From positions 11,592 to 75,591 of the forward strand of contig CAVVFV010000008.1 in NCBI GenBank assembly GCA_963747695.1: a stretch of DNA of 64,000 nt, written 5' to 3'. A model generated the notes under the pieces. The model worked only from the letters and a program-made list of their open reading frames with translations. It was not told the origin of the DNA and searched no databases. Within the stretch, counting starts at the first letter, position 1. Every line of letters begins with the position of its first letter. The translations under genes were made by a program, and so were the position numbers. Source of the DNA: Candidatus Falkowbacteria bacterium (GTDB lineage: Bacteria; Patescibacteriota; Patescibacteriia; Patescibacteriales; WJLG01). Positions 1,426 through 64,000 of this stretch are shown here, piece after piece.

Positions 1426-1838
1426 GAGATAAGAGAGAAAAGATTAGAAATTATAATTTACTAATTAAATGGAGGGGATAACGCAAACAAAAAGTTTTAA
1501 ATTTGGCTTGAGAATAATTAATTTATATAAATATTTGACTGAACGAAAGAAGGAATATATTATTTCAAAGCAAGTTTTAAGAAGCGGGACTTCTATTGGC
1601 GCTAATATGGAAGAAGCCGTAGGCGGACAAAGTAGAGCCGATTTTTACGCAAAAATATGTATCGCCTACAAGGAGGCCAGAGAAACCGTTTATTGGCTAA
1701 AATTATTACGAGGTGGATGTTACATTGAAGAAAACGATTTTATATCTATTTATAAGGATTGCGAAGAACTTTGCAAACTTCTGGGAAAGACTAAAATAAC
1801 GATGACGAAGTAGCAATTTCTTCTCTCTTCTCTCTTAA
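1422..1838. repeat. Composite palindromic cassette (AGAGAGA-word arms) enclosing a four-helix-bundle ORF
   Basis: Arms are at 1422-1443 (TTAAGAGATAAGAGAGAAAAGA) and 1817-1838 (TTTCTTCTCTCTTCTCTCTTAA). They are reverse complements with 3 mismatches. Confidence 0.75.
1469..1813 (+). CDS. Four helix bundle protein (23S rRNA intervening-sequence protein / Avd-like family)
   Basis: RSGTSIGANMEEA and KEARETVYWLKLL motifs are typical of the family. Length is 114 aa. Confidence 0.8.
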   Translation: MEGITQTKSFKFGLRIINLYKYLTERKKEYIISKQVLRSGTSIGANMEEAVGGQSRADFYAKICIAYKEARETVYWLKLLRGGCYIEENDFISIYKDCEELCKLLGKTKITMTK

Positions 1839-14513: not shown

Positions 14514-14962
14514 CCAATATCAAATAACCAATATTTAAAAAAATAAAAAATATTAAAATAATTTAAAGCATGATTTATGATCTGGAGGGGAGAACTAAAT
14601 CATTTAGCAGTAATGTGCTGAATTTTTTGCAAGCCGTGCCGCGAAATGATTTTACCAGAAACATTATTTTACAATTGATCAGGTCGGCAACAAGTATTGG
14701 CGCAAATTATCATGAGGCGAATGGCGGCTGTTATAGGAAGGAATTTAAAAATAGAATTTCCATCTGCTTGAGAGAAACAAAAGAAACTAAATATTGGATA
14801 GAATTATTGGCTAAATGCAGGGGTGTTGAATTGGCGGCGTTAAGAAAATTGTGGAAAGAGGCTGCTGAATTTTCTCTAATTTTTGGCTAGATATATTCAA
14901 GTTTATAATATTAAAATATTTAGATATTTTTTTAAGTATTGGTTATTTGATATTGGATATTT
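14514..14962. repeat. Composite palindromic cassette (CCAATAT-word arms) enclosing a four-helix-bundle ORF
   Basis: Left arm CCAATATCAAATAACCAATATTTAAAAAAATA... (14514-14568) pairs with right arm ...TAAGTATTGGTTATTTGATATTGGATATTT (14901-14962). The cassette fills the nifS stop to GT4 start spacer exactly. Confidence 0.8.
14570..14890 (+). CDS. Four helix bundle protein (23S rRNA IVS protein / Avd-like family)
   Basis: RSATSIGANYHEANG and KETKYWIELL motifs. Length is 106 aa. Confidence 0.8.
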   Translation: MIYDLEGRTKSFSSNVLNFLQAVPRNDFTRNIILQLIRSATSIGANYHEANGGCYRKEFKNRISICLRETKETKYWIELLAKCRGVELAALRKLWKEAAEFSLIFG

Positions 14963-42181: not shown

Positions 42182-42664
42182 ATGGAGGGGACCAAACTTG
42201 AAGAAATTAATCGATTAAAAGAAGAAACAGAAGAAAAATATAAGAAAATAGTCAAACTTTTTTGTCCGGCTTTAAAATCCGAAATTTATTTCAATTCCGA
42301 AGGCTTTCATCATTTGCGATATGATGGCCATCGGAGCGAAAGAGACAAAGTAGTTCAAAGAAATAAATTTTTGTGTTTTGATGCCGCAGTAGAAATATTG
42401 AAAACCTCAACAACTATTCAAGAATATCGCCGATCAATTTGTCCGATTGGAAAAATTGACCAAAGCGGTTTTCGTAAAACTAAAACAGTCGAATGGTTTT
42501 GTTTTTTCGCCATCATCAGTTTTTCCAAATGCCGCCGCATCAAGGTAATTGTTAGGCGCATCGGCGAAGAAACTAGAAAATTTAATTTCTGGAGCATTAT
42601 GCCATATTGGAATTTGACCAGCGGACGAAGAGTTATCGGCTTGAAAGAAATCGAAGATGGCTAA
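42182..42664 (+). CDS. Hypothetical protein (160 aa)
   Basis: A clear ORF followed by a terminator. I recognise no family. Confidence 0.5.
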   Translation: MEGTKLEEINRLKEETEEKYKKIVKLFCPALKSEIYFNSEGFHHLRYDGHRSERDKVVQRNKFLCFDAAVEILKTSTTIQEYRRSICPIGKIDQSGFRKTKTVEWFCFFAIISFSKCRRIKVIVRRIGEETRKFNFWSIMPYWNLTSGRRVIGLKEIEDG

Positions 42665-43855: not shown

Positions 43856-43884
43856 AAAATTGATTCATTCGTAGTAAATAAAAG

Positions 43885-43916
43885 ACCGCGGTCGCTGGAA
43901 GCTGGCCGCGGTTTTT
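43885..43916. terminator. Terminator between convergent rlmN and the 43930 operon
   Basis: ACCGCGG...CCGCGGT stem followed by TTTTT, with an A-rich 5' flank. Confidence 0.65.
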
Positions 43917-43929
43917 GAGTTGATTATTC

Positions 43930-44589
43930 CTAATCGCTGAGGTTAGTAACAGTGATCCGGTTTGGCTCCAGAACCACGATTTTACCGACAATCGAGTTCT
44001 TCTTGCCACTAATGCTTGACGGCGCGATGGAGTTGCCATCCACGATTAGCGTCGTTTCCTGGCGAACCTTCTGTCCTTTGTCTTCTCTGTCTTCAACCAG
44101 GCGGATGAAATAGTAGCCTTCCTTGAAGAGTTTAGAGGTGGGATCGGAAGGGGGCCGGTTTTGTTTGGTAATGACTCTGGTGACCAGACCCAGGATTTCG
44201 GTAAATTGCCGCAGCACAAGGAACCTGCCCCTGAAAAGTTGATGTCCTGGTTTTCCCGGAATACGGTTTTCTGATTTTTCGAAGACGATCAGCCGGGACG
44301 ATTCAATGAAAATATTTTTCCCGATAACGCTGTTGTTTCCAGTAATACTGGTTGCGGGAATTTCATTGTTATCGACCAACACCGCGGTCACTCTGTCGCG
44401 CGGTGGTTTTTCTTTGTTTTCGGGCTCGATAATTTTCAACAAAGAGAAATTCTGGGGGAAGAGCAGGGGAAAAGAAGGGTCGGGAGAGATTTCTGATTCT
44501 TGAGTGAAGACTTCGTATACCTCTCCGCAAATCTCCAGTACCGGTCGGAGCACATTGATTATTCCCGGGATAATTATCTGGCTGGGCAT
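43930..44589 (-). CDS. Hypothetical protein with an internal duplication (219 aa)
   Basis: Strong SD (AAGGAGG-cgagt-ATG). Two similar segments: VLVDNNEIPATSITGNNSVIGKNIFIESSRLIVFE and LIVDGNSIAPSSISGKKNSIVGKIVVLEPNRITVTN. Confidence 0.65.
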   Translation of the reverse strand: MPSQIIIPGIINVLRPVLEICGEVYEVFTQESEISPDPSFPLLFPQNFSLLKIIEPENKEKPPRDRVTAVLVDNNEIPATSITGNNSVIGKNIFIESSRLIVFEKSENRIPGKPGHQLFRGRFLVLRQFTEILGLVTRVITKQNRPPSDPTSKLFKEGYYFIRLVEDREDKGQKVRQETTLIVDGNSIAPSSISGKKNSIVGKIVVLEPNRITVTNLSD

Positions 44590-44963
44590 ACTCGCCTCCT
44601 TTTTGGCTTACAGTTTTCTTCAAAATCGATTCCATTGCTGTTGAGACAATATTTTCGCCTGCCGAATTTCCAGCGCAGAACGTATTCGGACATCGTGACT
44701 TTTTTACCGACTAATTTTTCCGGGTCGTATCCCTGGAGAGCCGACTTTTTGCAGATGAAATACTCGTCAGTTCCGATTTTGCCGGAGGATTGATCCGGCA
44801 GATCAGTCTTGACGGTAAATTCCAGCATTTTAATGGTATAAAGGCCGTAGCGCCGGGAAAATTCTTTCTGTTCGGTGAGGGTTCCGGCAATCCAGGAAAA
44901 GGGCAGAACATTGAAATAATCTCCGGGTTTCGCGATTTTTTGAAAAAGAACACCTAATCTCAT
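44574..44963 (-). CDS. Hypothetical protein (129 aa)
   Basis: Strong SD (TAGGAGG-ttatt-ATG). It overlaps the downstream gene by 16 nt. Confidence 0.65.
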   Translation of the reverse strand: MRLGVLFQKIAKPGDYFNVLPFSWIAGTLTEQKEFSRRYGLYTIKMLEFTVKTDLPDQSSGKIGTDEYFICKKSALQGYDPEKLVGKKVTMSEYVLRWKFGRRKYCLNSNGIDFEENCKPKRRRVCPAR

Positions 44964-45072
44964 AATAACCTCCTAATCGTAGGGTATGTCAAAGGAAAAA
45001 TATTTTTTTCGTATCTTGATATTCTGGCGTAAAGCTGGGCGCTTGTCAAGCATCTTGTGTCGGACGGAGATA

Positions 45073-45081
45073 TGATATAAT
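45073..45081 (+). promoter_or_regulatory. Extended -10 promoter TGATATAAT
   Basis: TGnTATAAT, 19 nt upstream of the ATG at 45101. Confidence 0.45.
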
Positions 45082-45100
45082 CTAATTAAATGGATAAAAT

Positions 45101-45367
45101 ATGTTAGCCAAACAGCAAAAAATATTAACCGAAAAGCAGGAGCTTTATTTGCGGGTCAAGGCGATCCCCGGAGCCGCGCGCACGGAAATCAAAACTGAAA
45201 TGGCCGACGGAACGATCAAGATTGCCGTCGCCGCGCCGCCGGAAAAAGGCAAGGCCAACCAGGCGCTGATTGAATTTTTAGCCGAAGAGTTCGGCGTCCC
45301 GAAGAACGCCATTAAAATAATTAGCGGCGCAGGAGTAAGATTGAAACTAATAAAAATCACCAAGTAG
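45101..45367 (+). CDS. DUF167 (YggU-like) protein
   Basis: LRVKAIPGA...IKIAVAAPPEKGKANQALIEFLAEEF... is typical of the YggU family. Confidence 0.75.
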   Translation: MLAKQQKILTEKQELYLRVKAIPGAARTEIKTEMADGTIKIAVAAPPEKGKANQALIEFLAEEFGVPKNAIKIISGAGVRLKLIKITK

Positions 45368-46552: not shown

Positions 46553-47617
46553 ATGTCCAAAAAGGTCGGAATTATTTTAGTAAATTATAAAGATTACGCG
46601 CAGCGTTTCCTCGCCGATTGCCGCGATTCTTTGCGCGCGCAAAATTATTCGCGAGAAGAGTTTACGGTTTATCTCGTCGATAATGCTTCGAGCGATGAAT
46701 CGGAAAAATATCTCAAAGAAAATTATCCGGAAGCGACAATCGTTTCCCGGCCAGATGGGAATTATTCCGCGGCCAATAATGCCGGCATAAAGGCGGCAAC
46801 GTCCGACGGCGCGGAAGTTTTCGTCATTGCCAATATGGATATGGCCTTTGAAAAAAATTGGCTGACTGAGCTGATCAACGCGCTAGAGAGTGATGATAAA
46901 ATCGGCATCGCTCAGTCGAAAATTTTGCTTTACTCTCAAGGCAACGAAACTAAAAAAATAAATACTCTCGGCAATGCGATTAATTTTTTAGGTTTTGGTT
47001 TTACCACCGGCTACCAAGAAGCTGATCGGGAAATCGTCGGCCTGCCAGAGATCAGAGGCTATGCTTCGGGCAGCTCGTTCGCTGTCAAAAAAGCAGTATT
47101 GGACAAGATCGGCGGCTACAACGAAGAGTATTATATGTATCATGATGATCTGGAAATGGGCTGGAAAGCCAAGCTGGCGGGATATAAAATAGTCTTAGCT
47201 CCGAAATCCGTCTGTTATCACAAATATGAATTTTCCCGCAGCATCAAGATGGTTTATTATATGGAGCGCAACCGCCTGATCACCATTTTTTCTTTCTATG
47301 AATTGACTTCAATACTCGCGATACTTCCCGCCTTGATTATTATGGAATTGGGCCAATTGTTTTTTGCTTTAATCAAAGGCTGGTTGCCGGAAAAATTGCG
47401 GGCCGACGAATATTTTTTGCACGCCGAAAATTGGGACAAAATTATGGCCGCAAGAAAGCAGGTTAAGAATTTCCGCGCCAAAAAAGATCGCGAGATCGTC
47501 GATGATTTTTCCGGAGAAATCTTGTTCCAGGAAATCGACAACCCAATTCTTAAATATCTTGCCAACCCTTTCTTCAAGTGGTATTGGAATTTGGCCAAGA
47601 GAGCGATTAAGGGATAA
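46553..47617 (+). CDS. Glycosyltransferase family 2
   Basis: GIILVNY, LVDNASSD, NNAG and HDDLEMG motifs. Confidence 0.8.
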   Translation: MSKKVGIILVNYKDYAQRFLADCRDSLRAQNYSREEFTVYLVDNASSDESEKYLKENYPEATIVSRPDGNYSAANNAGIKAATSDGAEVFVIANMDMAFEKNWLTELINALESDDKIGIAQSKILLYSQGNETKKINTLGNAINFLGFGFTTGYQEADREIVGLPEIRGYASGSSFAVKKAVLDKIGGYNEEYYMYHDDLEMGWKAKLAGYKIVLAPKSVCYHKYEFSRSIKMVYYMERNRLITIFSFYELTSILAILPALIIMELGQLFFALIKGWLPEKLRADEYFLHAENWDKIMAARKQVKNFRAKKDREIVDDFSGEILFQEIDNPILKYLANPFFKWYWNLAKRAIKG

Positions 47618-57683: not shown

Positions 57684-57713
57684 TAGGGATCGGTATTAAA
57701 CCGGTCCCTATTT
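57684..57713 (+). terminator. Hairpin, possible terminator
   Basis: TAGGGATCGG-TATTAAA-CCGGTCCCTA followed by TTT. Confidence 0.5.
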
Positions 57714-57716
57714 ATA

Positions 57717-57745
57717 TTGACAAATAGATTAGAAAATGATATCGT
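57717..57745 (+). promoter_or_regulatory. Promoter TTGACA-14 nt-TGaTATCGT
   Basis: TTGACAAATAGATTAGAAAATGATATCGT is paralogous to the sequence at 56630-56658. Confidence 0.5.
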
Positions 57746-57815
57746 GACAAAGTAAAAATTGATGGGTCGAAAGTTATTTTTCTAACAAAAAAAATGAGGA
57801 CAAAGGAGGTTAAAC

Positions 57816-58052
57816 ATGGGGATTGGTAATGAACTCGAAAAATTGGCCGGAAAAGTTATTGTGATTTCTAAAGATAGATATTCAGGCGTAATCACAATAT
57901 TTTATGACGAAGAAGATCAACGTCCGATTGGGTCGCTGAGTTCTAAAATCATAAAGATTGATCGAGATTCTTTTACTACTGATTCGGGGGATGTTTATGC
58001 ATTAAGTTTTGTAAGTAAAATTGTATATCATTCGCCATTTAAATCAGGATGA
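57816..58052 (+). CDS. Small hypothetical protein (78 aa)
   Basis: Strong SD (AAAGGAGG-ttaaac-ATG). A terminator follows. Confidence 0.55.
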   Translation: MGIGNELEKLAGKVIVISKDRYSGVITIFYDEEDQRPIGSLSSKIIKIDRDSFTTDSGDVYALSFVSKIVYHSPFKSG

Positions 58053-58087
58053 AAAAAATAATTCAGAGTCCTTCTGAGATCATAATG

Positions 58088-58117
58088 AAGGGGCAGGTAT
58101 TAAGCCGCCCCTTTTTT
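58088..58117 (+). terminator. Rho-independent terminator
   Basis: AAGGGGC...GCCCCTT stem followed by TTTTTT. Confidence 0.7.
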
Positions 58118-58381
58118 ATTTCAAGGAATTAGTTCTAATTCGTCCCTTTGGGGGAGGAATTTTTTTGTATGCAAAAAAAATTAATTTAGTCAAACTGTAC
58201 AAAAAATGTGCACACAAGTTATCCACAACAATCAATTAAAAATTAAAAAATAAAAATTAAAAATTTGCTTTATTTTCCTGCCCTTTTTGAGAAGAAAAAC
58301 ATCCCTGATATTTTTAGTAATAATAGAGAAAAAAAATTAACAAAAAATGCTCAATTTTCCAGCAAAAGGGACTCAGGAAGT

Positions 58382-58390
58382 GATATAATT
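58382..58390 (+). promoter_or_regulatory. Extended -10 promoter TGATATAAT upstream of the giant gene
   Basis: TGnTATAAT in an AT-rich region. The palindrome TTGTATATACAA lies just downstream. Confidence 0.4.
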
Positions 58391-58537
58391 ATATTGTATA
58401 TACAATATATGCGAAGGGGACTTTCAGCGCGACAAAAAGCGGGAAAAATAAGGCCTCGGTCTTTTGGTATTCGGGCGGGGCGGCAGCGGACAAAAAAAAT
58501 CCGCGGCTTTGGTTTTTCCATCAACTGTTCAAAAATT

Positions 58538-61500
58538 TTGATCATCGCTTTTTATCTATTGGCGATCGGCGGTTTTGTCGTCGTCTTGGATAAGTCCTTG
58601 CACGCGACCGCCAACGACAATCTGGCGACGGTTAATTTTTACGCCAATGCGGCGCGAGTCGAGGGTGCGGACAATTCCTGGACGGGGATCGACCAGGTTC
58701 TGGGCGCGCCGCAAGTAGCGGATTCGGGCGAGGCAAGCGATTTCAACTCTGAAAATTCCGCAATCTATTCCGGCGGCCGGCAAGCTTTGATTCTTGATAA
58801 TTTTACCACCGAAGATTTCATTAAAAGTTCCGCTCCGGTCGAGGTGACCTCGTCCCCGCAAGCCGCGGCGAAAAATAATCAGCTGCCAAATATTTTAGCG
58901 ACTTCGAGCGCCGCAGGCACCAGCGGAGCAGAAACTTCTTCCAGCGCGTCGATTATTTCTTTGCCGCTTGAAAGCGCTTCTTCTTCCGCGGATAATTCCA
59001 GCGGCTCCGTTAGTCCGGCTCCGGCTGATTCCGGCAATGAAGTTCCAGCTCCGCCGCCCGCGGATAATTCTTCGGCTGTCGAACCGGCAACGCCGGCGAT
59101 GCCGTCCGACAATTTTTCGCCCGCCGATCCGGCCGCACCCGCGCCAACGGCGCCGGCTGATAATTCCACGGTAAGCGAACCGGCGGCGACGACGGTACCT
59201 GAGACTGATAATAATTCTTCGCCGGCGGCGGCTGATCAAGCTCCGGCACCGGACGTGCAGAATCATTTACCTGATGCGGGCAGCGTTGCTCCGGATAACG
59301 GCGATTCGAGCGGACCGGTGTCGTGGCTCAAGGAAATTGGAAATATTTTAGCGGTTAGCAAAAATCAGTTCGGCGAGACTTTGCTCGGCAAGTTGGCGTT
59401 AGCCGATTCGCAATGGGGTTCGGACGCCGATGACCGTAACATCCTTTTTGGGCCGTTCAAGAGCGCTAAGATCAAAGTTTCCATCGCCGCAATCGAACAA
59501 GCCGCGGCGGAAAATACTTTCCCGGCTTCATCGGGCGCGATAGCTTCTTCGACCGATTCAATCCCGGCTCAAGCGGCCACGGGAACCAGTCCGGATAAGC
59601 AGCCGGCCGCCGCGGCAGTGGAAACGACAACCAATAACGATAGTTCGGCTTCTTCCTCGGTAAATTCGGGCACTACCGGCGGTGTTATCCAAAAGATCTT
59701 GGATTTCTTCGCGCCGGGCAAAGCCGGCGCTGCGGAAATCGATCCGGCGACCAACGGCGCGCCGATCGTTATCTGGTATTCGTTTGCCGACGAAGGCGAC
59801 GGCAATGTCTGGCGGCAGCTCGGTGTGATCGACTCGGGAGCGCTGGCTAATGGCGATCGCGGCGGCTATCTTACTTTTGACGCGCCGTTCCTGAACGACT
59901 GGCGCGATCTCGATAATCTGCGTTTGAAATTCGCCGGTACCGACGGCACGGGAAATTTTAAAGCCTACTTGGACAGCGCTTGGGTGGAAATTTCTTATCA
60001 GAACGGACCGGACAAAGTCGAGACTCCCCCGGCGAATACCGACAAGGACAAATTGGAGATTGACGGCAAGGAAATCAATTTTACCTGGACTGATAATAAC
60101 AGCAATGAGAATCTGATCATCAAATCGGATGCGAAAAAATATTTCGGGCTGACCGACGCCGAAATGTATTTCAGCGTGGAGAATACCGGCGTCCGCGACG
60201 AAGCCGTCAATTTCCAGTTTTATTTTCCGGCGACCAGTTCGCAGGTAATCAAATTGAATGAACTCGTGCCCCACAGTCCATACTTAACCGAAGTGCCGCA
60301 GTATCAGGCGCAGATTTACGATTGCGCCAACGGCTGGGACAAGCGGGGAAATATTTGGAGTTGCTATCCGACGGGAGAAGATAGAGCTTGCGGCGAGGTC
60401 AGCCCCAACCGCCGCTATTGCCGGATCAACGGCGTGATGACCGGCACGGTCGAGAAGATCCAGTACGCCGACCGCTGGCAGGAACTCGGTTTGGACGGGA
60501 AAGCGATCGCGACCCAGGAAGGGTTGCTGCAGAAATTATTCGGCCTGGGTCCGCAGACCAAGGAAGTGCCGGAAAATTTTGTTAATAAGAAAACTACGGC
60601 CGACACGGTGACGATCGCGCCGGGCGAGGTAAAATATTTTAAAGCGAGCCTGAATTTTCCCGCCAACACGGAAGGAGAATTTTATGTCGAAGCGATCGGC
60701 GGCGGCGACGGTTACGGGTTGCTTGATCCCTGGTGGAATTCGGGCTGGAATTATCGCTTGCCGATCACCATCGATAACTCGGGCAATACCAACGCGCTCA
60801 CCGATTACCAGGTTTATCTGGAAATTTCTTCTTCGACCAGCCGCGATTTCTGGCGCAACATCAAACCGGACGGCAGCGATATCCGTTTTACCGATTCCGC
60901 TCAAACCACCGAATTGCCGTATTGGGTGCAGTCTTTCGATTCAACCGCTTCTTCGGCAAAAATCTGGGTCAAAGTCGATTCGATCCCGGCGGCGACAACC
61001 AGCAAGATTTATTTGTATTACGGCAACGGCGGCGCGTCCAGCGCTTCCGACCAGTTCGCGCCGTTCACTTTTTCAACTTTGCAGAATATTTTTTATACGG
61101 CGAGTTCCTCGGCAGCCAAAACCATCAACGTCGTCAGTTTGATCGATAACAATCAGGTGCAATTGGATAACGGCACGGCGATCAATCTGAGCCGGCAGCA
61201 GACTGCCGTCTTTACCGGTTTTTCCGCGACGTCGGTAGTCAAAGCCAAAGGGCCGATCATGGCCAAACTGTCCGGCGGCGCCGGTTTGGAATCGGCCATC
61301 CCGATTTCTTTTGCCGGCAGCGATTTTGTGATTCCTTCCAACCGCGGGCAAGAAAGTTTTAATTTTTACGCGCCGTTCGCGGCCGCCAACATTACGCTTG
61401 CCGATGGCCAAACTTTGAAGCAAAGCCAAGCGGTAAATCAAGGAAGCGCCTGGACCACCGAGCAGGATATCGCCACCGACAGCATCGCGATCGTAGGAAG

Positions 61501-64000
61501 CGACCAGCCGGTCTTATTTTCTTTCGCCGATGATCTGCCGGGTGACAGTCTGATCGGCTATCCGGCCACTGATCGCGATCTTTACGGCGTGAAGTCGCGA
61601 TACAATCTGATCGGCGCAAGCACCGTTTCTTCTTTCACCATATTTTGTTCGAATGATTCTTCGACGACGATTTCAGCTCTGCCGGCCGGAGCGCTGCAGC
61701 CGAATCAAACCTGTTCCGGCGGCAGCAAAGGCGCCGGCGATGCCGTCCGCTTAGCCGGAATCAGTGGCGCGATCAACGCCATCCAGCAAGACGAAGGAAC
61801 GTCGAGTGAATCGACGATGTTCTTGCCGTTCAAGGAATTTTCCAGCGAGTATATGCTGCCGACCAATGCGGCGCACATTGCCGTGGTTTGCGCTCCCGAA
61901 TCAGGCGAGGTCGATTTATCTGTTTATGATCAAAATAATAATTTCGTCTCCAGCTCGACTTGTTCGGGAGTCGGAAATTATCCCGGCAAAGCATATTTTG
62001 GCGCGGCTGATGACACTACTTATTTAGCCGGATCGCGGATCGTTTCCACCAACGGCCGGCCGTTTTACGCTTATTACGAAGATACCTCGGCGACGGCAGG
62101 AGGCGCGGAGACGAATTTATTCGGCGCGGTGCAAACAAGAAATTATTCTTCGCCTGACCCGACCTATACTGTCGGCGCGCAGCAGATCGAAGGTCCGCCG
62201 ACCGGTTTGATCAACTCGGCCGCGGAAAAAACCGATCGCTCCGGCAGAGTCGCAGTTTCGATCGCGGTAAATGATCTTTCCCGCGATGATTGCCGCGCTA
62301 AGATCGAATACTCCGCCCAAGTCGGCGGCCATTGCGATTTCGGCTCACCGCTTAAGCCGACGCTGGACGAAAATTTTGTCACGGCGGATTTCGGTACGCC
62401 GGCCATCAGCAATTTGGATATTTATCAGATCGGCACGTCGACCAATCCGATCAGCACGGCGAGCGGCACGAATAACATCTTGTTCGCGTGGCAATCCAAG
62501 ACCGATCTGCCGGCCGCCGACGGAATTTATTGTTTGCGTTTGACCGCTAACGATAACATCAGCGATCAGACGATACCGGCGACGACCACGGTCGAAATCG
62601 ATAACGCAGCGCCGACGGTTCCGGGCGATTTGACGCTAGCAGCCAAGGACGGCACCAGCGCGACTTTGAAATTTTCCGCTACCTCGACTGACTCCCATTT
62701 TAAAGAATATCGGATTTATTATAAGCAGTATGACGGTTCGCCGGTCAACATAACGGACATTTTGTTCGGTTCGTCTTCGGACGTCAATTTGGCTGACGCG
62801 AATTTCAACCACTCCACTTCGACGAAGGTCGGCGGCCTGGTCACGGGAATGAAATATACTTTCAATCTTTTCGCTTACGATACTTTTGGCAACATTTCCA
62901 GTTCCACGGACAGCCTTAACGTGGTGGCTAATGATCCGCCGACCGCCACGCTGAATTCGGCTGCGGAAAAAACCGACGGCTCCGGCAAAGTGGATATTTC
63001 TTTCACCGCCGACGATCTTGATCACGACAACACCTTGCGCGCCAAGCTCGAGTATCAACCCGGCTCAAAATGCGATTTCACTTCTTCCAGCCTGGCGACG
63101 ATCGACGCCGACAGTCTGGCTGCTTTGCACGGCTCGGTGCAGGCCGATAATAATCAGACTTATCGGATCGGCACGACTTCGTACTACATTTTGACTTCGC
63201 TCGGACCGAACACGGTCAATCTCGATTGGCTTTCCGACTTGGATGCGCCGACGGCGAGCGGAACTTATTGCCTGCGTCTCACCGCCAATGATGGCGTCGA
63301 CGATCAGCTTACGCCTTCAAATATGGTCGTTGTTTTGGATAACATCAAACCGACCGCGCCGGGGGATTTGTCGATCGGCAGTTCCACTGAAACTTCACTG
63401 CAGTTGATCTTGCCGACGAAGCATCTCGCTCAAGACAACAACGAGCCGACCTCTGGAGCTTATAAGATTTTCTACAAAGAAGGTACTGCCGGTGTTTCCA
63501 CCGCGGATACGCCGTTTACCAGTCCGGCTTTGGATGCTTACGATTTCAACGGTTCAAGCTCAGTGCTCATTTCCGGCTTGACTGCCAATACTCATTACGT
63601 TTTTAATCTCTGGGCTTATGATTCTTTCGGCAACAATGTCAGTTCGACGGAAATTACAGCGCGGACCGATGCGGACCTGACTAATAAGTCCTTGCTGTTC
63701 GCCAATCCGGAAAGCACCGGCACCACGACCGATATCGCCGTGGCGGATAACCAGAGCGCTTGGGATTTCCGCGCTCGGGTAAGCGATGTCGACGGTTATG
63801 CGGCAATCAACGATGTGACTTTGAGTTTAGCCGATGACTATAATATCTCGCCGCCGCTCGATGATCTTAAATTCATTTGGACTAAATCGACCGGAGCTTT
63901 CGCCGAAACCGGCATTGATTCCAACTCGGCTGCCGCGCTTTCGCCGGAGAGCACTTCTTCCTGCGCCGGACTTTTCTGTACGGTTGATTTTAAAATTATT
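58538..64000 (+). CDS. Giant cell-surface protein, 3'-truncated by the window (over 1820 aa): N-terminal TM anchor, Pro/Ala/Ser linker, DUF2341-like lectin-fold domain, tandem FN3-like modules
   Basis: One frame is open from 58385 to the window end, and all listed ORFs across this span are short shadows. WWNSGWNYRLPITIDN...DIRFTD...LPYWV...KIWVKV...IYLYYGN (about 60728-61055) matches the DUF2341 pattern. The start is uncertain: TTG at 58538 is the first canonical in-frame start. Confidence 0.8.
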   Translation, partial: MIIAFYLLAIGGFVVVLDKSLHATANDNLATVNFYANAARVEGADNSWTGIDQVLGAPQVADSGEASDFNSENSAIYSGGRQALILDNFTTEDFIKSSAPVEVTSSPQAAAKNNQLPNILATSSAAGTSGAETSSSASIISLPLESASSSADNSSGSVSPAPADSGNEVPAPPPADNSSAVEPATPAMPSDNFSPADPAAPAPTAPADNSTVSEPAATTVPETDNNSSPAAADQAPAPDVQNHLPDAGSVAPDNGDSSGPVSWLKEIGNILAVSKNQFGETLLGKLALADSQWGSDADDRNILFGPFKSAKIKVSIAAIEQAAAENTFPASSGAIASSTDSIPAQAATGTSPDKQPAAAAVETTTNNDSSASSSVNSGTTGGVIQKILDFFAPGKAGAAEIDPATNGAPIVIWYSFADEGDGNVWRQLGVIDSGALANGDRGGYLTFDAPFLNDWRDLDNLRLKFAGTDGTGNFKAYLDSAWVEISYQNGPDKVETPPANTDKDKLEIDGKEINFTWTDNNSNENLIIKSDAKKYFGLTDAEMYFSVENTGVRDEAVNFQFYFPATSSQVIKLNELVPHSPYLTEVPQYQAQIYDCANGWDKRGNIWSCYPTGEDRACGEVSPNRRYCRINGVMTGTVEKIQYADRWQELGLDGKAIATQEGLLQKLFGLGPQTKEVPENFVNKKTTADTVTIAPGEVKYFKASLNFPANTEGEFYVEAIGGGDGYGLLDPWWNSGWNYRLPITIDNSGNTNALTDYQVYLEISSSTSRDFWRNIKPDGSDIRFTDSAQTTELPYWVQSFDSTASSAKIWVKVDSIPAATTSKIYLYYGNGGASSASDQFAPFTFSTLQNIFYTASSSAAKTINVVSLIDNNQVQLDNGTAINLSRQQTAVFTGFSATSVVKAKGPIMAKLSGGAGLESAIPISFAGSDFVIPSNRGQESFNFYAPFAAANITLADGQTLKQSQAVNQGSAWTTEQDIATDSIAIVGSDQPVLFSFADDLPGDSLIGYPATDRDLYGVKSRYNLIGASTVSSFTIFCSNDSSTTISALPAGALQPNQTCSGGSKGAGDAVRLAGISGAINAIQQDEGTSSESTMFLPFKEFSSEYMLPTNAAHIAVVCAPESGEVDLSVYDQNNNFVSSSTCSGVGNYPGKAYFGAADDTTYLAGSRIVSTNGRPFYAYYEDTSATAGGAETNLFGAVQTRNYSSPDPTYTVGAQQIEGPPTGLINSAAEKTDRSGRVAVSIAVNDLSRDDCRAKIEYSAQVGGHCDFGSPLKPTLDENFVTADFGTPAISNLDIYQIGTSTNPISTASGTNNILFAWQSKTDLPAADGIYCLRLTANDNISDQTIPATTTVEIDNAAPTVPGDLTLAAKDGTSATLKFSATSTDSHFKEYRIYYKQYDGSPVNITDILFGSSSDVNLADANFNHSTSTKVGGLVTGMKYTFNLFAYDTFGNISSSTDSLNVVANDPPTATLNSAAEKTDGSGKVDISFTADDLDHDNTLRAKLEYQPGSKCDFTSSSLATIDADSLAALHGSVQADNNQTYRIGTTSYYILTSLGPNTVNLDWLSDLDAPTASGTYCLRLTANDGVDDQLTPSNMVVVLDNIKPTAPGDLSIGSSTETSLQLILPTKHLAQDNNEPTSGAYKIFYKEGTAGVSTADTPFTSPALDAYDFNGSSSVLISGLTANTHYVFNLWAYDSFGNNVSSTEITARTDADLTNKSLLFANPESTGTTTDIAVADNQSAWDFRARVSDVDGYAAINDVTLSLADDYNISPPLDDLKFIWTKSTGAFAETGIDSNSAAALSPESTSSCAGLFCTVDFKII

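What the first reader, a model, noticed from the sequence alone, without database searches (positions are those of the whole stretch)
43930..44963. Unknown two-gene operon with strong Shine-Dalgarno sites in an otherwise SD-poor window; the second protein is internally duplicated
Both genes have textbook ribosome-binding sites: TAGGAGG-ttatt-ATG at 44963 and AAGGAGG-cgagt-ATG at 44589. The genes overlap by 16 nt. In contrast, almost all of the roughly 50 other start codons I inspected have A/T-rich upstream regions without a GGAGG-like sequence.

The operon lies on the opposite strand between rlmN and a DUF167 gene, and it is bounded by a terminator.

The 219-aa product contains two similar beta-rich segments of about 35 aa (VLVDNNEIPATSITGNNSVIGKNIFIESSRLIVFE and LIVDGNSIAPSSISGKKNSIVGKIVVLEPNRITVTN). 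The 129-aa product has a basic Cys-containing tail.

I recognise neither family. The different translation signals suggest foreign (phage or plasmid) origin or a special expression regime. It could be a small toxin/immunity or defence-type pair, but that is speculation.
Basis: partly seen in the sequence, partly recalled or inferred. Interest (0 to 1): 0.6.

Follow-up and report, generated by a model that had tools for sequence, protein, structure and literature searches.

The report
Orphan SD-led two-gene cassette, Patescibacteria
Two small overlapping genes of unknown family sit in a swappable slot between two housekeeping genes of an uncultured Patescibacteria bacterium, and they are almost the only genes in the window with a classical ribosome-binding site, but their function could not be determined.

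Summary
Gene A (44574..44963, 129 aa) and gene B (43930..44589, 219 aa) overlap by 16 nt. They have TAGGAGGT and AAGGAGG sites, a sigma-70-like promoter and an intrinsic terminator. Of 59 genes in the window, only three pair strongly with an anti-SD: A, B and a 78-aa orphan at 57816.

B is a tandem duplication of a whole ~105-aa all-beta domain, not just a 35-aa segment. Both proteins are orphans: nothing in Pfam, NCBIfam, PHROGs, PADLOC, PDB, phages or plasmids. An exhaustive search of 1.84 billion proteins found five B clusters. All lie between rlmN and yggU (DUF167) in close Patescibacteria relatives.

The site is empty in two more distant relatives. One relative carries an unrelated 93-aa gene there. 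Flanking proteins are 80-91% identical across relatives, but B is 25-40% identical except in one relative, and A is 31-41%.

The pair is therefore an accessory, fast-diversifying cassette with ordinary base composition, not a core operon and not demonstrably phage- or plasmid-derived. A is basic (pI 9.6-11.1); B is acidic to mildly basic. A conflict-type pair, with B neutralising A, is my best guess at low confidence. The families are new, but no function has been shown.

The parts
45021..45049 (-). Promoter-like site for the cassette: TTGACA, 17 nt, CAGAAT
   Evidence: 10 of 12 matches. The -35 element and surrounding block are conserved in L001, L006, L012 and L004 (alignment A9).
44964..45014 (-). 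Short, unstructured 5' leader of gene A. Poorly conserved apart from the SD.
   Evidence: Fold z = +1.3. Nucleotide identity to L001 is 45-47% here, against 90-97% just upstream.
44968..44975 (-). Shine-Dalgarno site of gene A (TAGGAGGT), 4-5 nt before the ATG
   Evidence: -10.9 kcal/mol. GGAGGTT or GGGGGTT sits at the same place in L004, L010 and L001.
44574..44963 (-). Gene A: 129-aa basic (pI 9.6) all-beta orphan protein with a disordered KRRR tail
   Evidence: Four family members with a conserved LPF..G and YV(L/F)RW(E/K)F motif. dN/dS about 0.3 against L001.
44595..44601 (-). Shine-Dalgarno site of gene B (AAGGAGG). It lies inside gene A's last codons and encodes A's K-R-R.
   Evidence: -11.6 kcal/mol. 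Identical in L001.
44574..44589 (-). 16-nt overlap of A and B, implying translational coupling
   Evidence: L001 has the same 16-nt overlap; L010 has a 4-nt overlap.
43930..44589 (-). Gene B: 219-aa protein made of two copies of a ~105-aa all-beta domain
   Evidence: dN/dS 0.19 and dS 0.56 against L001.
44266..44589 (-). B domain 1 (residues 1-108)
   Evidence: AlphaFold2 model from a 9-sequence alignment: pLDDT 77, pTM 0.69, seven strands.
43933..44253 (-). B domain 2 (residues 113-219)
   Evidence: 30% identical to domain 1 over 102 aa, E = 5e-14.
43876..43912 (-). Intrinsic terminator (ACCGCGG...CCGCGGU stem plus U-run), shared with convergent rlmN
   Evidence: -15.3 kcal/mol, z = -2.8. (inverted repeat I7). 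Conserved in L001 and L012.
45072..45100 (+). Divergent promoter-like site for DUF167 (yggU)
   Evidence: A TATAAT-containing block is conserved in relatives.

Best explanation
Shown: this is a self-contained accessory cassette with its own sigma-70-like promoter, SD-led and translationally coupled genes, and its own terminator. It sits in inverted orientation in a variable slot between rlmN and yggU (DUF167) in a narrow clade of Patescibacteria. It encodes two orphan, cytoplasmic, all-beta proteins. A is about 125 aa and strongly basic. B is built from one or two copies of a ~105-aa domain and ranges from acidic to mildly basic. The cassette diversifies far faster than its flanks, apparently by allele or cassette replacement. 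It is present, absent or replaced among genomes whose core proteins are 80-90% identical.

Inferred: A and B are made in fixed proportion and form a complex. The basic A is probably a nucleic-acid-binding effector. B binds or neutralises it; the tandem form in this genome would act as a covalent pseudo-dimer. On this reading the pair is a conflict-type module, like a toxin-antitoxin or immunity pair, rather than housekeeping.

The conserved SD sites give these genes an initiation route that the host's core genes do not use.
For: Cassette anatomy.

Restricted distribution. An exhaustive HMMER search of 1.84e9 proteins found 5 B clusters. All lie at the same junction.

Presence, absence and replacement. 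The site is empty in L013 and L014. L012 has an unrelated 93-aa ORF between the same promoter and terminator.

Hypervariability against the flanks. rlmN is 85-91% and GT2 80-81% identical among all relatives. B is 82% identical only between the window and L001, and 25-40% elsewhere. A is 31-41% identical to its three homologues.

Mosaic pattern against L001. The promoter and DUF167 5' end are 90-97% identical at nucleotide level. The leader and gene A are 23-65%. Gene B is about 85%. Gene B's dS (0.56) is lower than the neighbours' (0.8-1.5), while gene A's dS is saturated.

Both genes are under purifying selection: omega 0.19 for B and about 0.3 for A.

Charge and fold. A has pI 9.6-11.1 and B has pI 5.3-8.6. 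Both are predicted all-beta.

Architectures seen: A+B (four), B alone (L006-9), A alone never.

Start-codon overlaps of 16 and 4 nt. SD-like motifs before every cassette gene in every relative, -5.6 to -12.3 kcal/mol, against a background median of -0.7.
Against: - No toxin, antitoxin, immunity or defence family matches in Pfam, NCBIfam or PADLOC.
- No significant structural neighbour. The best Foldseek E-values are 0.2-0.8.
- No conserved catalytic-looking motif in A. Its invariant residues are mostly aromatic or hydrophobic.
- A and B do not co-vary between the window and L001 (A 37-41%, B 82%). That is not expected of a tight cognate lock-and-key pair.
- B has no recognisable DNA-binding antitoxin domain.
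- Physical interaction, nucleic-acid binding and toxicity are all untested.
- Only about 6 independent loci exist, so counts of architectures are weak evidence.
- Both AlphaFold models have only moderate confidence (pLDDT 77 and 67).
Confidence: 0.3

Rival explanations
1. A non-conflict accessory nucleic-acid-binding pair. A and B would be OB-like small beta-barrel proteins, such as ssDNA- or RNA-binding or chaperone-type proteins. They would serve a lineage-specific physiological role and evolve fast under relaxed constraint.
For: All the weak Foldseek neighbours of the B domain are OB-fold nucleic-acid binders: Rim1 SSB, PriB, ribosomal uS17, KREPA and CST, with TM 0.3-0.45. One A homologue touches the phage G5P ssDNA-binding family at E = 0.069. 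A is very basic with an aromatic YVxRWxF strand. Tandem or dimeric OB arrangements are common; this last point is from my own knowledge.
Against: None of these matches is significant: E >= 0.8, probability <= 0.63, and no Pfam OB family hit. B is acidic to mildly basic, which suits nucleic-acid binding poorly. Presence/absence polymorphism and replacement by an unrelated ORF argue against a needed physiological function.
Confidence: 0.2
2. A remnant of a mobile element or prophage, for example a pair of small structural or accessory phage proteins. It would retain the SD-type signals of its former genome and have little present function for the cell.
For: SD signals differ from the host's core genes. 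The cassette is an insertion relative to L013 and L014. The weak Foldseek neighbours of A are phage neck or tail-tube proteins, TM <= 0.31. Two other orphan genes also carry an SD: the low-GC 78-aa ORF at 57816 and L001's strain-specific 283-aa ORF.
Against: There are no homologues in 50,697 phage records, 72,556 plasmids or IMG/VR, and no PHROG hit. GC and GC3 are host-like. No integrase, target-site duplication or terminal repeat was found. Both genes are under purifying selection. The SD and promoter are conserved across diverged relatives.
Confidence: 0.1
3. The SD sites are the main point. The cassette would be translated by a specialised route, and A or B would act on the translation apparatus. 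The model is Bacteroidia, where ribosomes are blind to SD and the one SD-bearing gene, rpsU, is read by bS21-lacking ribosomes.
For: Core genes avoid SD (median -0.7 against -1.9 at random positions), while cassette SDs are conserved across relatives. Precedent: PMC9976891, PMC7797042, PMC13000453. Part of Parcubacteria even lack the anti-SD motif (PMC9297842). A is a small, basic beta protein with a disordered basic tail, which is ribosomal-protein-like in composition. The cassette abuts rlmN.
Against: A dispensable, hypervariable, swappable cassette is unlike a component of the translation apparatus. No similarity to any ribosomal protein family was found. The host's 16S 3' end could not be examined because the window contains no rRNA.
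Confidence: 0.08
4. Ordinary conserved core genes of this lineage that merely lack annotation.
For: Same position and orientation in close relatives, ordinary GC and GC3, and B 82% identical to its L001 orthologue, like neighbouring core genes.
Against: The site is empty in L013 and L014. L012 carries a different gene there. A is absent from L006-9. Identity is 25-40% in genomes whose flanks are 80-90% identical.
Confidence: 0.05

Closest known systems
Type II toxin-antitoxin modules with the toxin gene first (for example higBA, hicAB, mqsRA)
   Same: Two small cytoplasmic proteins from one promoter with overlapping or coupled genes. One is basic, and its partner is acidic in three of the four B proteins measured (the window's own B has pI 8.6). 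Accessory, patchy and fast-evolving. The putative neutraliser (B) can occur alone, but the basic partner never does.
   Different: No sequence or fold match to any toxin or antitoxin family. B has no RHH, HTH, AbrB or Phd DNA-binding domain and is a duplicated beta domain. A and B do not co-vary. Toxicity and neutralisation are untested.
SD-bearing rpsU in SD-blind Bacteroidia (PMC9976891, PMC7797042, PMC13000453)
   Same: A genome whose core genes lack SD but in which a very few genes keep a strong, conserved SD. This implies a separate initiation regime.
   Different: Different phylum. The SD-led genes here are dispensable orphans, not a ribosomal protein. Nothing is known about anti-SD sequestration in this organism, and its 16S was not available.
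OB-fold single-strand nucleic-acid-binding proteins (SSB/Rim1, PriB, uS17)
   Same: Small all-beta domains of about 100 aa, single or tandem. These are the only recurring theme among the weak structural neighbours of B.
   Different: TM 0.3-0.45 and E >= 0.8, with no profile match. Seven predicted strands rather than five. B is not basic.
Variable-gene slots or hot spots at conserved chromosomal junctions (defence or accessory islands)
   Same: Conserved flanks, promoter and terminator with interchangeable contents, and empty sites in relatives.
   Different: Only about 1.1 kb, with one or two tiny genes. No recombinase. No known defence gene (PADLOC negative).

Membership tests
Type II toxin-antitoxin module | Two small adjacent co-transcribed genes, usually overlapping | tested here: met
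   16-nt overlap, a single promoter and a single terminator.
Type II toxin-antitoxin module | Toxin belongs to a recognised toxin fold or family (RelE/ParE, MazF/CcdB, PIN, HicA, Doc, GNAT and others) | tested here: not met
   No Pfam, NCBIfam or PADLOC hit for A or B. No significant Foldseek match against PDB.
Type II toxin-antitoxin module | Antitoxin carries a DNA-binding domain (RHH, HTH, AbrB, Phd/YefM) | tested here: not met
   No such domain in either protein. Both are predicted all-beta.
Type II toxin-antitoxin module | One product is toxic and the other neutralises it by binding | not testable with these tools
   Needs expression and pull-down experiments.
Known anti-phage defence systems (PADLOC-DB) | Match to a defence-system protein model | tested here: not met
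   0 families at E <= 1 for both proteins.
Prophage, plasmid or mobile-element cargo | Homologues in phage, plasmid or viral collections; recombinase or terminal repeats; atypical composition | tested here: not met
   No tblastn hits. No IMG/VR loci. No PHROG hit. No flanking repeats. GC 0.446 and 0.479 against a background of 0.472; GC3 0.504 and 0.566 against 0.565.
OB-fold nucleic-acid-binding proteins | Five-stranded closed beta-barrel of OB topology with a significant structural or profile match | tested here: inconclusive
Shine-Dalgarno-led initiation | At least 6 nt complementary to the 16S 3' tail, 4-9 nt before the start, and conserved in orthologues | tested here: met
   The motif is kept in relatives although the surrounding leader is not.
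Shine-Dalgarno-led initiation | The host 16S rRNA carries an accessible anti-SD (CCUCC) | not testable with these tools
   No rRNA in the window or in the fetched loci. The anti-SD motif was detected in only 48% of Parcubacteria (PMC9297842).
PilZ c-di-GMP receptor domain (considered because of the (D/N)xSxxG-like motif ITG(D/E/N)NSIEG) | RxxxR plus (D/N)xSxxG motifs about 20-30 residues apart, and a Pfam PF07238 match | tested here: not met
   No conserved RxxxR in alignment A3. No PilZ hit even at E <= 10.

The most novel reading that the evidence does not exclude
In a Patescibacteria lineage whose core genes avoid SD sequences, conserved strong SDs mark a handful of swappable orphan cassettes: A/B, the 78-aa ORF at 57816, and L001's 283-aa ORF. 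These cassettes would be translated by a separate initiation route. That route could be specialised or anti-SD-unmasked ribosomes, as for Bacteroidia rpsU. Alternatively, if the lineage lacks the anti-SD as about half of Parcubacteria do, the GGAGG motif would have a non-canonical role. On this reading A/B is a previously undescribed conflict module built from two new beta-folds.
Probability: 0.12. Interest if true: 0.75.

Novelty: categorically new. Interest (0 to 1): 0.42.

Why it matters
The finding defines two new protein families confined to one small Patescibacteria clade. It also defines a roughly 1.1-kb swappable slot with a fixed promoter and terminator, which is a compact example of accessory-gene turnover in a reduced genome.

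More generally, it gives a concrete test case for how SD-led genes are read in a genome whose core genes do not use SD. That question is open for Patescibacteria and has only recently been resolved for Bacteroidia.

The novelty label needs a caveat. 'Categorically new' here means only that no known family or system could be matched. Orphan genes are common in these genomes, and no new mechanism has been demonstrated.

Tried and rejected
Searches that found nothing:
- Pfam, NCBIfam, PHROGs and PADLOC, on the window proteins and on every family member. Nothing was better than E = 0.03.
- PDB sequence-profile search.
- Foldseek of both AlphaFold models against PDB, and of the B-domain model against BFVD. 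No hit at E < 0.2.
- tblastn against phages and plasmids.
- IMG/VR scans.
- GTDB genome scans and a first metagenome scan. These probably failed because the short-pattern method or the collection misses these samples.

Ideas tested and dropped:
- A and B are homologous to each other: hhalign probability 1%.
- L012's 93-aa ORF, or the window's 78-aa ORF, is a diverged B domain: hhalign probability < 2%, hmmsearch E >= 3.
- PilZ: see the membership test.
- Mobile-element boundaries: only the terminator hairpin was found.
- Regulatory RNA: no Rfam family or tRNA in the window, and the leader is unstructured.
- The apparent SD-led ORF at 60684..61142 is spurious. It lies out of frame inside a giant ORF.

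The codon-usage deviation of B (z = -3.6) was not pursued, because short genes have inflated variance against the long-gene background.

Full report
**1. What is in the sequence**

On the minus strand, gene A (44574..44963, 129 aa) and gene B (43930..44589, 219 aa) overlap by 16 nt. A is preceded by TAGGAGGttattATG and B by AAGGAGGcgagtATG.

A promoter-like site (TTGACA, 17 nt, CAGAAT) lies at 45049..45021. The leader after it is short and unstructured. Downstream of B, a hairpin at 43885..43912 followed by a U-run folds at -15.3 kcal/mol, z = -2.8. It serves both the cassette and the convergent rlmN.

The neighbours are rlmN (radical SAM plus RlmN_N domains) and a DUF167/YggU gene.

A's basic tail (KPKRRRVCPAR) is largely a by-product of overlap. 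K-R-R-R is encoded by AAAAGGAGGCGA, which is gene B's SD.

**2. Is the SD contrast real?**

Yes. I scored duplex energy between the -20..-3 region and a canonical 16S tail for 59 genes.

| Measure | Value |
|---|---|
| Median over the 59 genes | -0.7 kcal/mol |
| Median at random positions | -1.9 kcal/mol |
| Gene B | -11.6 |
| Gene A | -10.9 |
| 78-aa ORF at 57816..58052 | -12.3 |

Core genes therefore pair with an anti-SD less well than random sequence does. Only the three genes listed reach -10 or below.

AGGAGG is not over-represented in the window, with 16 sites against 16.9 expected. Yet three of the 16 sit 4-6 nt before these three ATGs.

A fourth apparent case, at 60684, is spurious. 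It lies out of frame inside a giant ORF of at least 1,918 aa.

In relatives L001 and L010 the same pattern holds. Only the cassette genes, plus one strain-specific 283-aa ORF in L001, have SD-like sequences.

**3. The proteins**

B is a tandem duplication of a complete ~105-aa unit. Its two halves are 30% identical over 102 aa, E = 5e-14.

AlphaFold2 on a 9-sequence domain alignment gives an all-beta, seven-strand model with pLDDT 77 and pTM 0.69. A, modelled with 4 sequences, is also all-beta with a disordered tail, at pLDDT 67 and pTM 0.57.

A proteins have pI 9.6-11.1. B proteins have pI 5.3-8.6; the window's own B is the mildly basic one, at 8.6. A and B are not detectably homologous.

Neither protein matches any of the following:
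- Pfam, NCBIfam, PHROGs or PADLOC.
- PDB by sequence profile.
- PDB or BFVD by Foldseek.

The only recurring theme is weak. B's best structural neighbours are all OB-fold nucleic-acid binders, at TM 0.25-0.45 and E >= 0.8. A's are phage neck or tail-tube proteins, at TM <= 0.31. I treat both as leads, not evidence.

**4. Distribution**

The word-indexed search of 5.8 billion clusters found only the window's own B protein and one 82%-identical B orthologue, and nothing but itself for A.

A full HMMER pass over 1.84 billion representatives, using a profile of the half-domain, found five clusters in all:
- The window's own protein.
- P0004, with two domains.
- P0005 and P0006, with one domain each.
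- P0007, a fragment.

Every one lies at the same place, next to DUF167 and/or rlmN, in syntenic Patescibacteria contigs.

A-like genes precede B in L001, L004 and L010. They form a real family with conserved LPF..G and YV(L/F)RW(E/K)F motifs. A is absent from L006-L009, where B directly follows the promoter.

**5. Core or accessory?**

I fetched further relatives through rlmN. The states at the rlmN-DUF167 junction are:

| Locus | rlmN identity to window | Content of the junction |
|---|---|---|
| L013 | 79% | Empty; 108-nt AT-rich spacer |
| L014 | 70% | Empty; rlmN and DUF167 overlap |
| L012 | 82% | Same promoter block and terminator, but a 93-aa ORF unrelated to A or B |

The cassette is therefore an insertion into an ancestral rlmN-yggU pair, and its contents are interchangeable.

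The rate contrast is strong:

| Protein | Identity |
|---|---|
| rlmN, among all relatives | 85-91% |
| Adjacent glycosyltransferase, among all relatives | 80-81% |
| B, window vs L001 | 82% |
| B domains, window vs P0004, P0005, P0006, P0007 | 25-40% |
| A, window vs its three homologues | 31-41% |

**6. Mosaic structure against L001**

The nucleotide identity profile changes sharply along the locus:

| Segment | Nucleotide identity |
|---|---|
| DUF167 5' end and promoter block | 90-97% |
| Leader and gene A | 23-65% |
| Gene B, rising sharply from about 44600 | About 85% |

Gene B's dS (0.56) is below that of neighbouring core genes (0.8-1.5). Gene A's dS is saturated, with dN = 0.58. Omega is 0.19 for B and about 0.3 for A, so both are under purifying selection as coding sequences.

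The simplest reading is recombinational allele replacement, with breakpoints in the leader and at the A/B junction. This is inference from a single genome pair.

**7. Foreign origin?**

Not shown. The evidence against it:
- GC and GC3 are 0.446/0.504 for A and 0.479/0.566 for B. Both are within the window's range of 0.472 ± 0.031 and 0.565 ± 0.053.
- There are no homologues in phage, plasmid or IMG/VR collections.
- There is no recombinase gene and there are no flanking repeats.

The cassette is old enough to have diversified within the clade.

**8. How it most likely works**

Shown:
- It is an independent transcription unit with SD-led, coupled translation.
- It is accessory and rapidly diversifying.
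- It encodes two cytoplasmic beta proteins, one strongly basic and the other acidic to mildly basic.

Inferred, at about 0.3 confidence: A and B form a complex in which B neutralises a basic, probably nucleic-acid-binding A. B would act as a covalent pseudo-dimer here and as a presumed homodimer where it has a single domain. That makes the pair a conflict-type module, like a toxin-antitoxin or immunity pair. The architectures seen fit this: A+B and B alone occur, but A alone never does.

Against this reading:
- No known toxin or antitoxin fold is present.
- PADLOC is negative.
- A and B do not co-vary.
- No interaction or toxicity data exist.

The rivals are listed in the Rival explanations section with their tests. 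They are an OB-like nucleic-acid-binding accessory pair, a mobile-element remnant, a module linked to specialised translation, and unannotated core genes.

**9. The SD question**

SD motifs are conserved before cassette genes in all relatives, while the surrounding leader is not. Selection therefore maintains them.

Whether they pair with the host 16S cannot be checked here, because the window contains no rRNA. This matters for two reasons:
- The anti-SD motif was detected in only 48% of Parcubacteria (PMC9297842).
- In Bacteroidia the anti-SD is present but masked, and the rare SD-bearing gene is read by specialised ribosomes (PMC7797042, PMC9976891, PMC13000453).

Checking the 16S 3' end of this genome is the cheapest decisive step.

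**10. Verdict**

The pair is accessory and uses unusual initiation signals. Foreign origin and a defence role remain unproven.
- The two families match nothing known, so I label them 'categorically new' in that limited sense.
- Function is unresolved and orphan genes are common in these genomes, so interest is moderate.

Noticed in passing
window 57816..58052 (+), with flanks 57700..58120: A 78-aa orphan ORF has the strongest SD in the window (AAAGGAGGTtaaacATG, -12.3 kcal/mol). It has its own TTGACA-type promoter and a GC-rich terminator. Its GC (0.34) and GC3 (0.23) are far below the background. It has no Pfam hit and is a singleton cluster. It looks like a second, probably more recent, SD-led accessory mini-cassette.
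   Followed up: partly
window ~58300..64000 (+), running off the window end: A giant ORF of at least 1,918 aa contains DUF2341 and fibronectin type III domains and has higher GC (0.52-0.58). It is probably a large surface protein typical of Patescibacteria. The many short ORFs listed in this region are out-of-frame artefacts.
   Followed up: partly
window 42182..42664 (+); L001 12131..12982; L005 1491..1724: There is a second variable slot, between the PPIase gene and rlmN. The window and L010 carry a 160/157-aa orphan (79% identical). L001 instead has a 283-aa orphan on the opposite strand with an AAAGGAG SD. L005 has a 77-aa ORF.
   Followed up: partly
window 46553..47617 (+): This GT2 glycosyltransferase is only 42-47% identical to its L001 counterpart, with saturated dS. 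The GT2 genes on either side are 81-83% identical. It is another allele-replaced gene, probably involved in the cell envelope.
   Followed up: no
window 43930..44589 and 45031..45210, compared with L001: Gene B has lower synonymous divergence (dS 0.56) than neighbouring core genes (0.8-1.5). The DUF167 5' end and promoter are 90-97% identical at nucleotide level. This suggests recent recombinational exchange of the cassette's flanks, or an extra nucleotide-level constraint.
   Followed up: partly
L012 1557..1838 (-): A relative carries an unrelated 93-aa ORF between the same conserved promoter block and CCGCGG-stem terminator. The regulatory frame of the slot is therefore more conserved than its cargo.
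   Followed up: yes
L004 1253..2422 and L010 7330..8502: In two relatives a NAGPA-family gene is inserted between DUF167 and the cassette promoter. It is apparently driven by the divergent promoter.
   Followed up: no
window, all start regions: Upstream regions of core genes pair with an anti-SD less well than random positions do (median -0.7 against -1.9 kcal/mol). They are A/T-rich, which is consistent with SD avoidance and a Bacteroidia-like, A-rich initiation context.
   Followed up: partly
window 1469..1813 (+) and 14570..14890 (+): Two genes encode '23S rRNA intervening sequence protein' (PF05635) four-helix-bundle proteins. There is no rRNA or tRNA anywhere in the 64-kb window.
   Followed up: no
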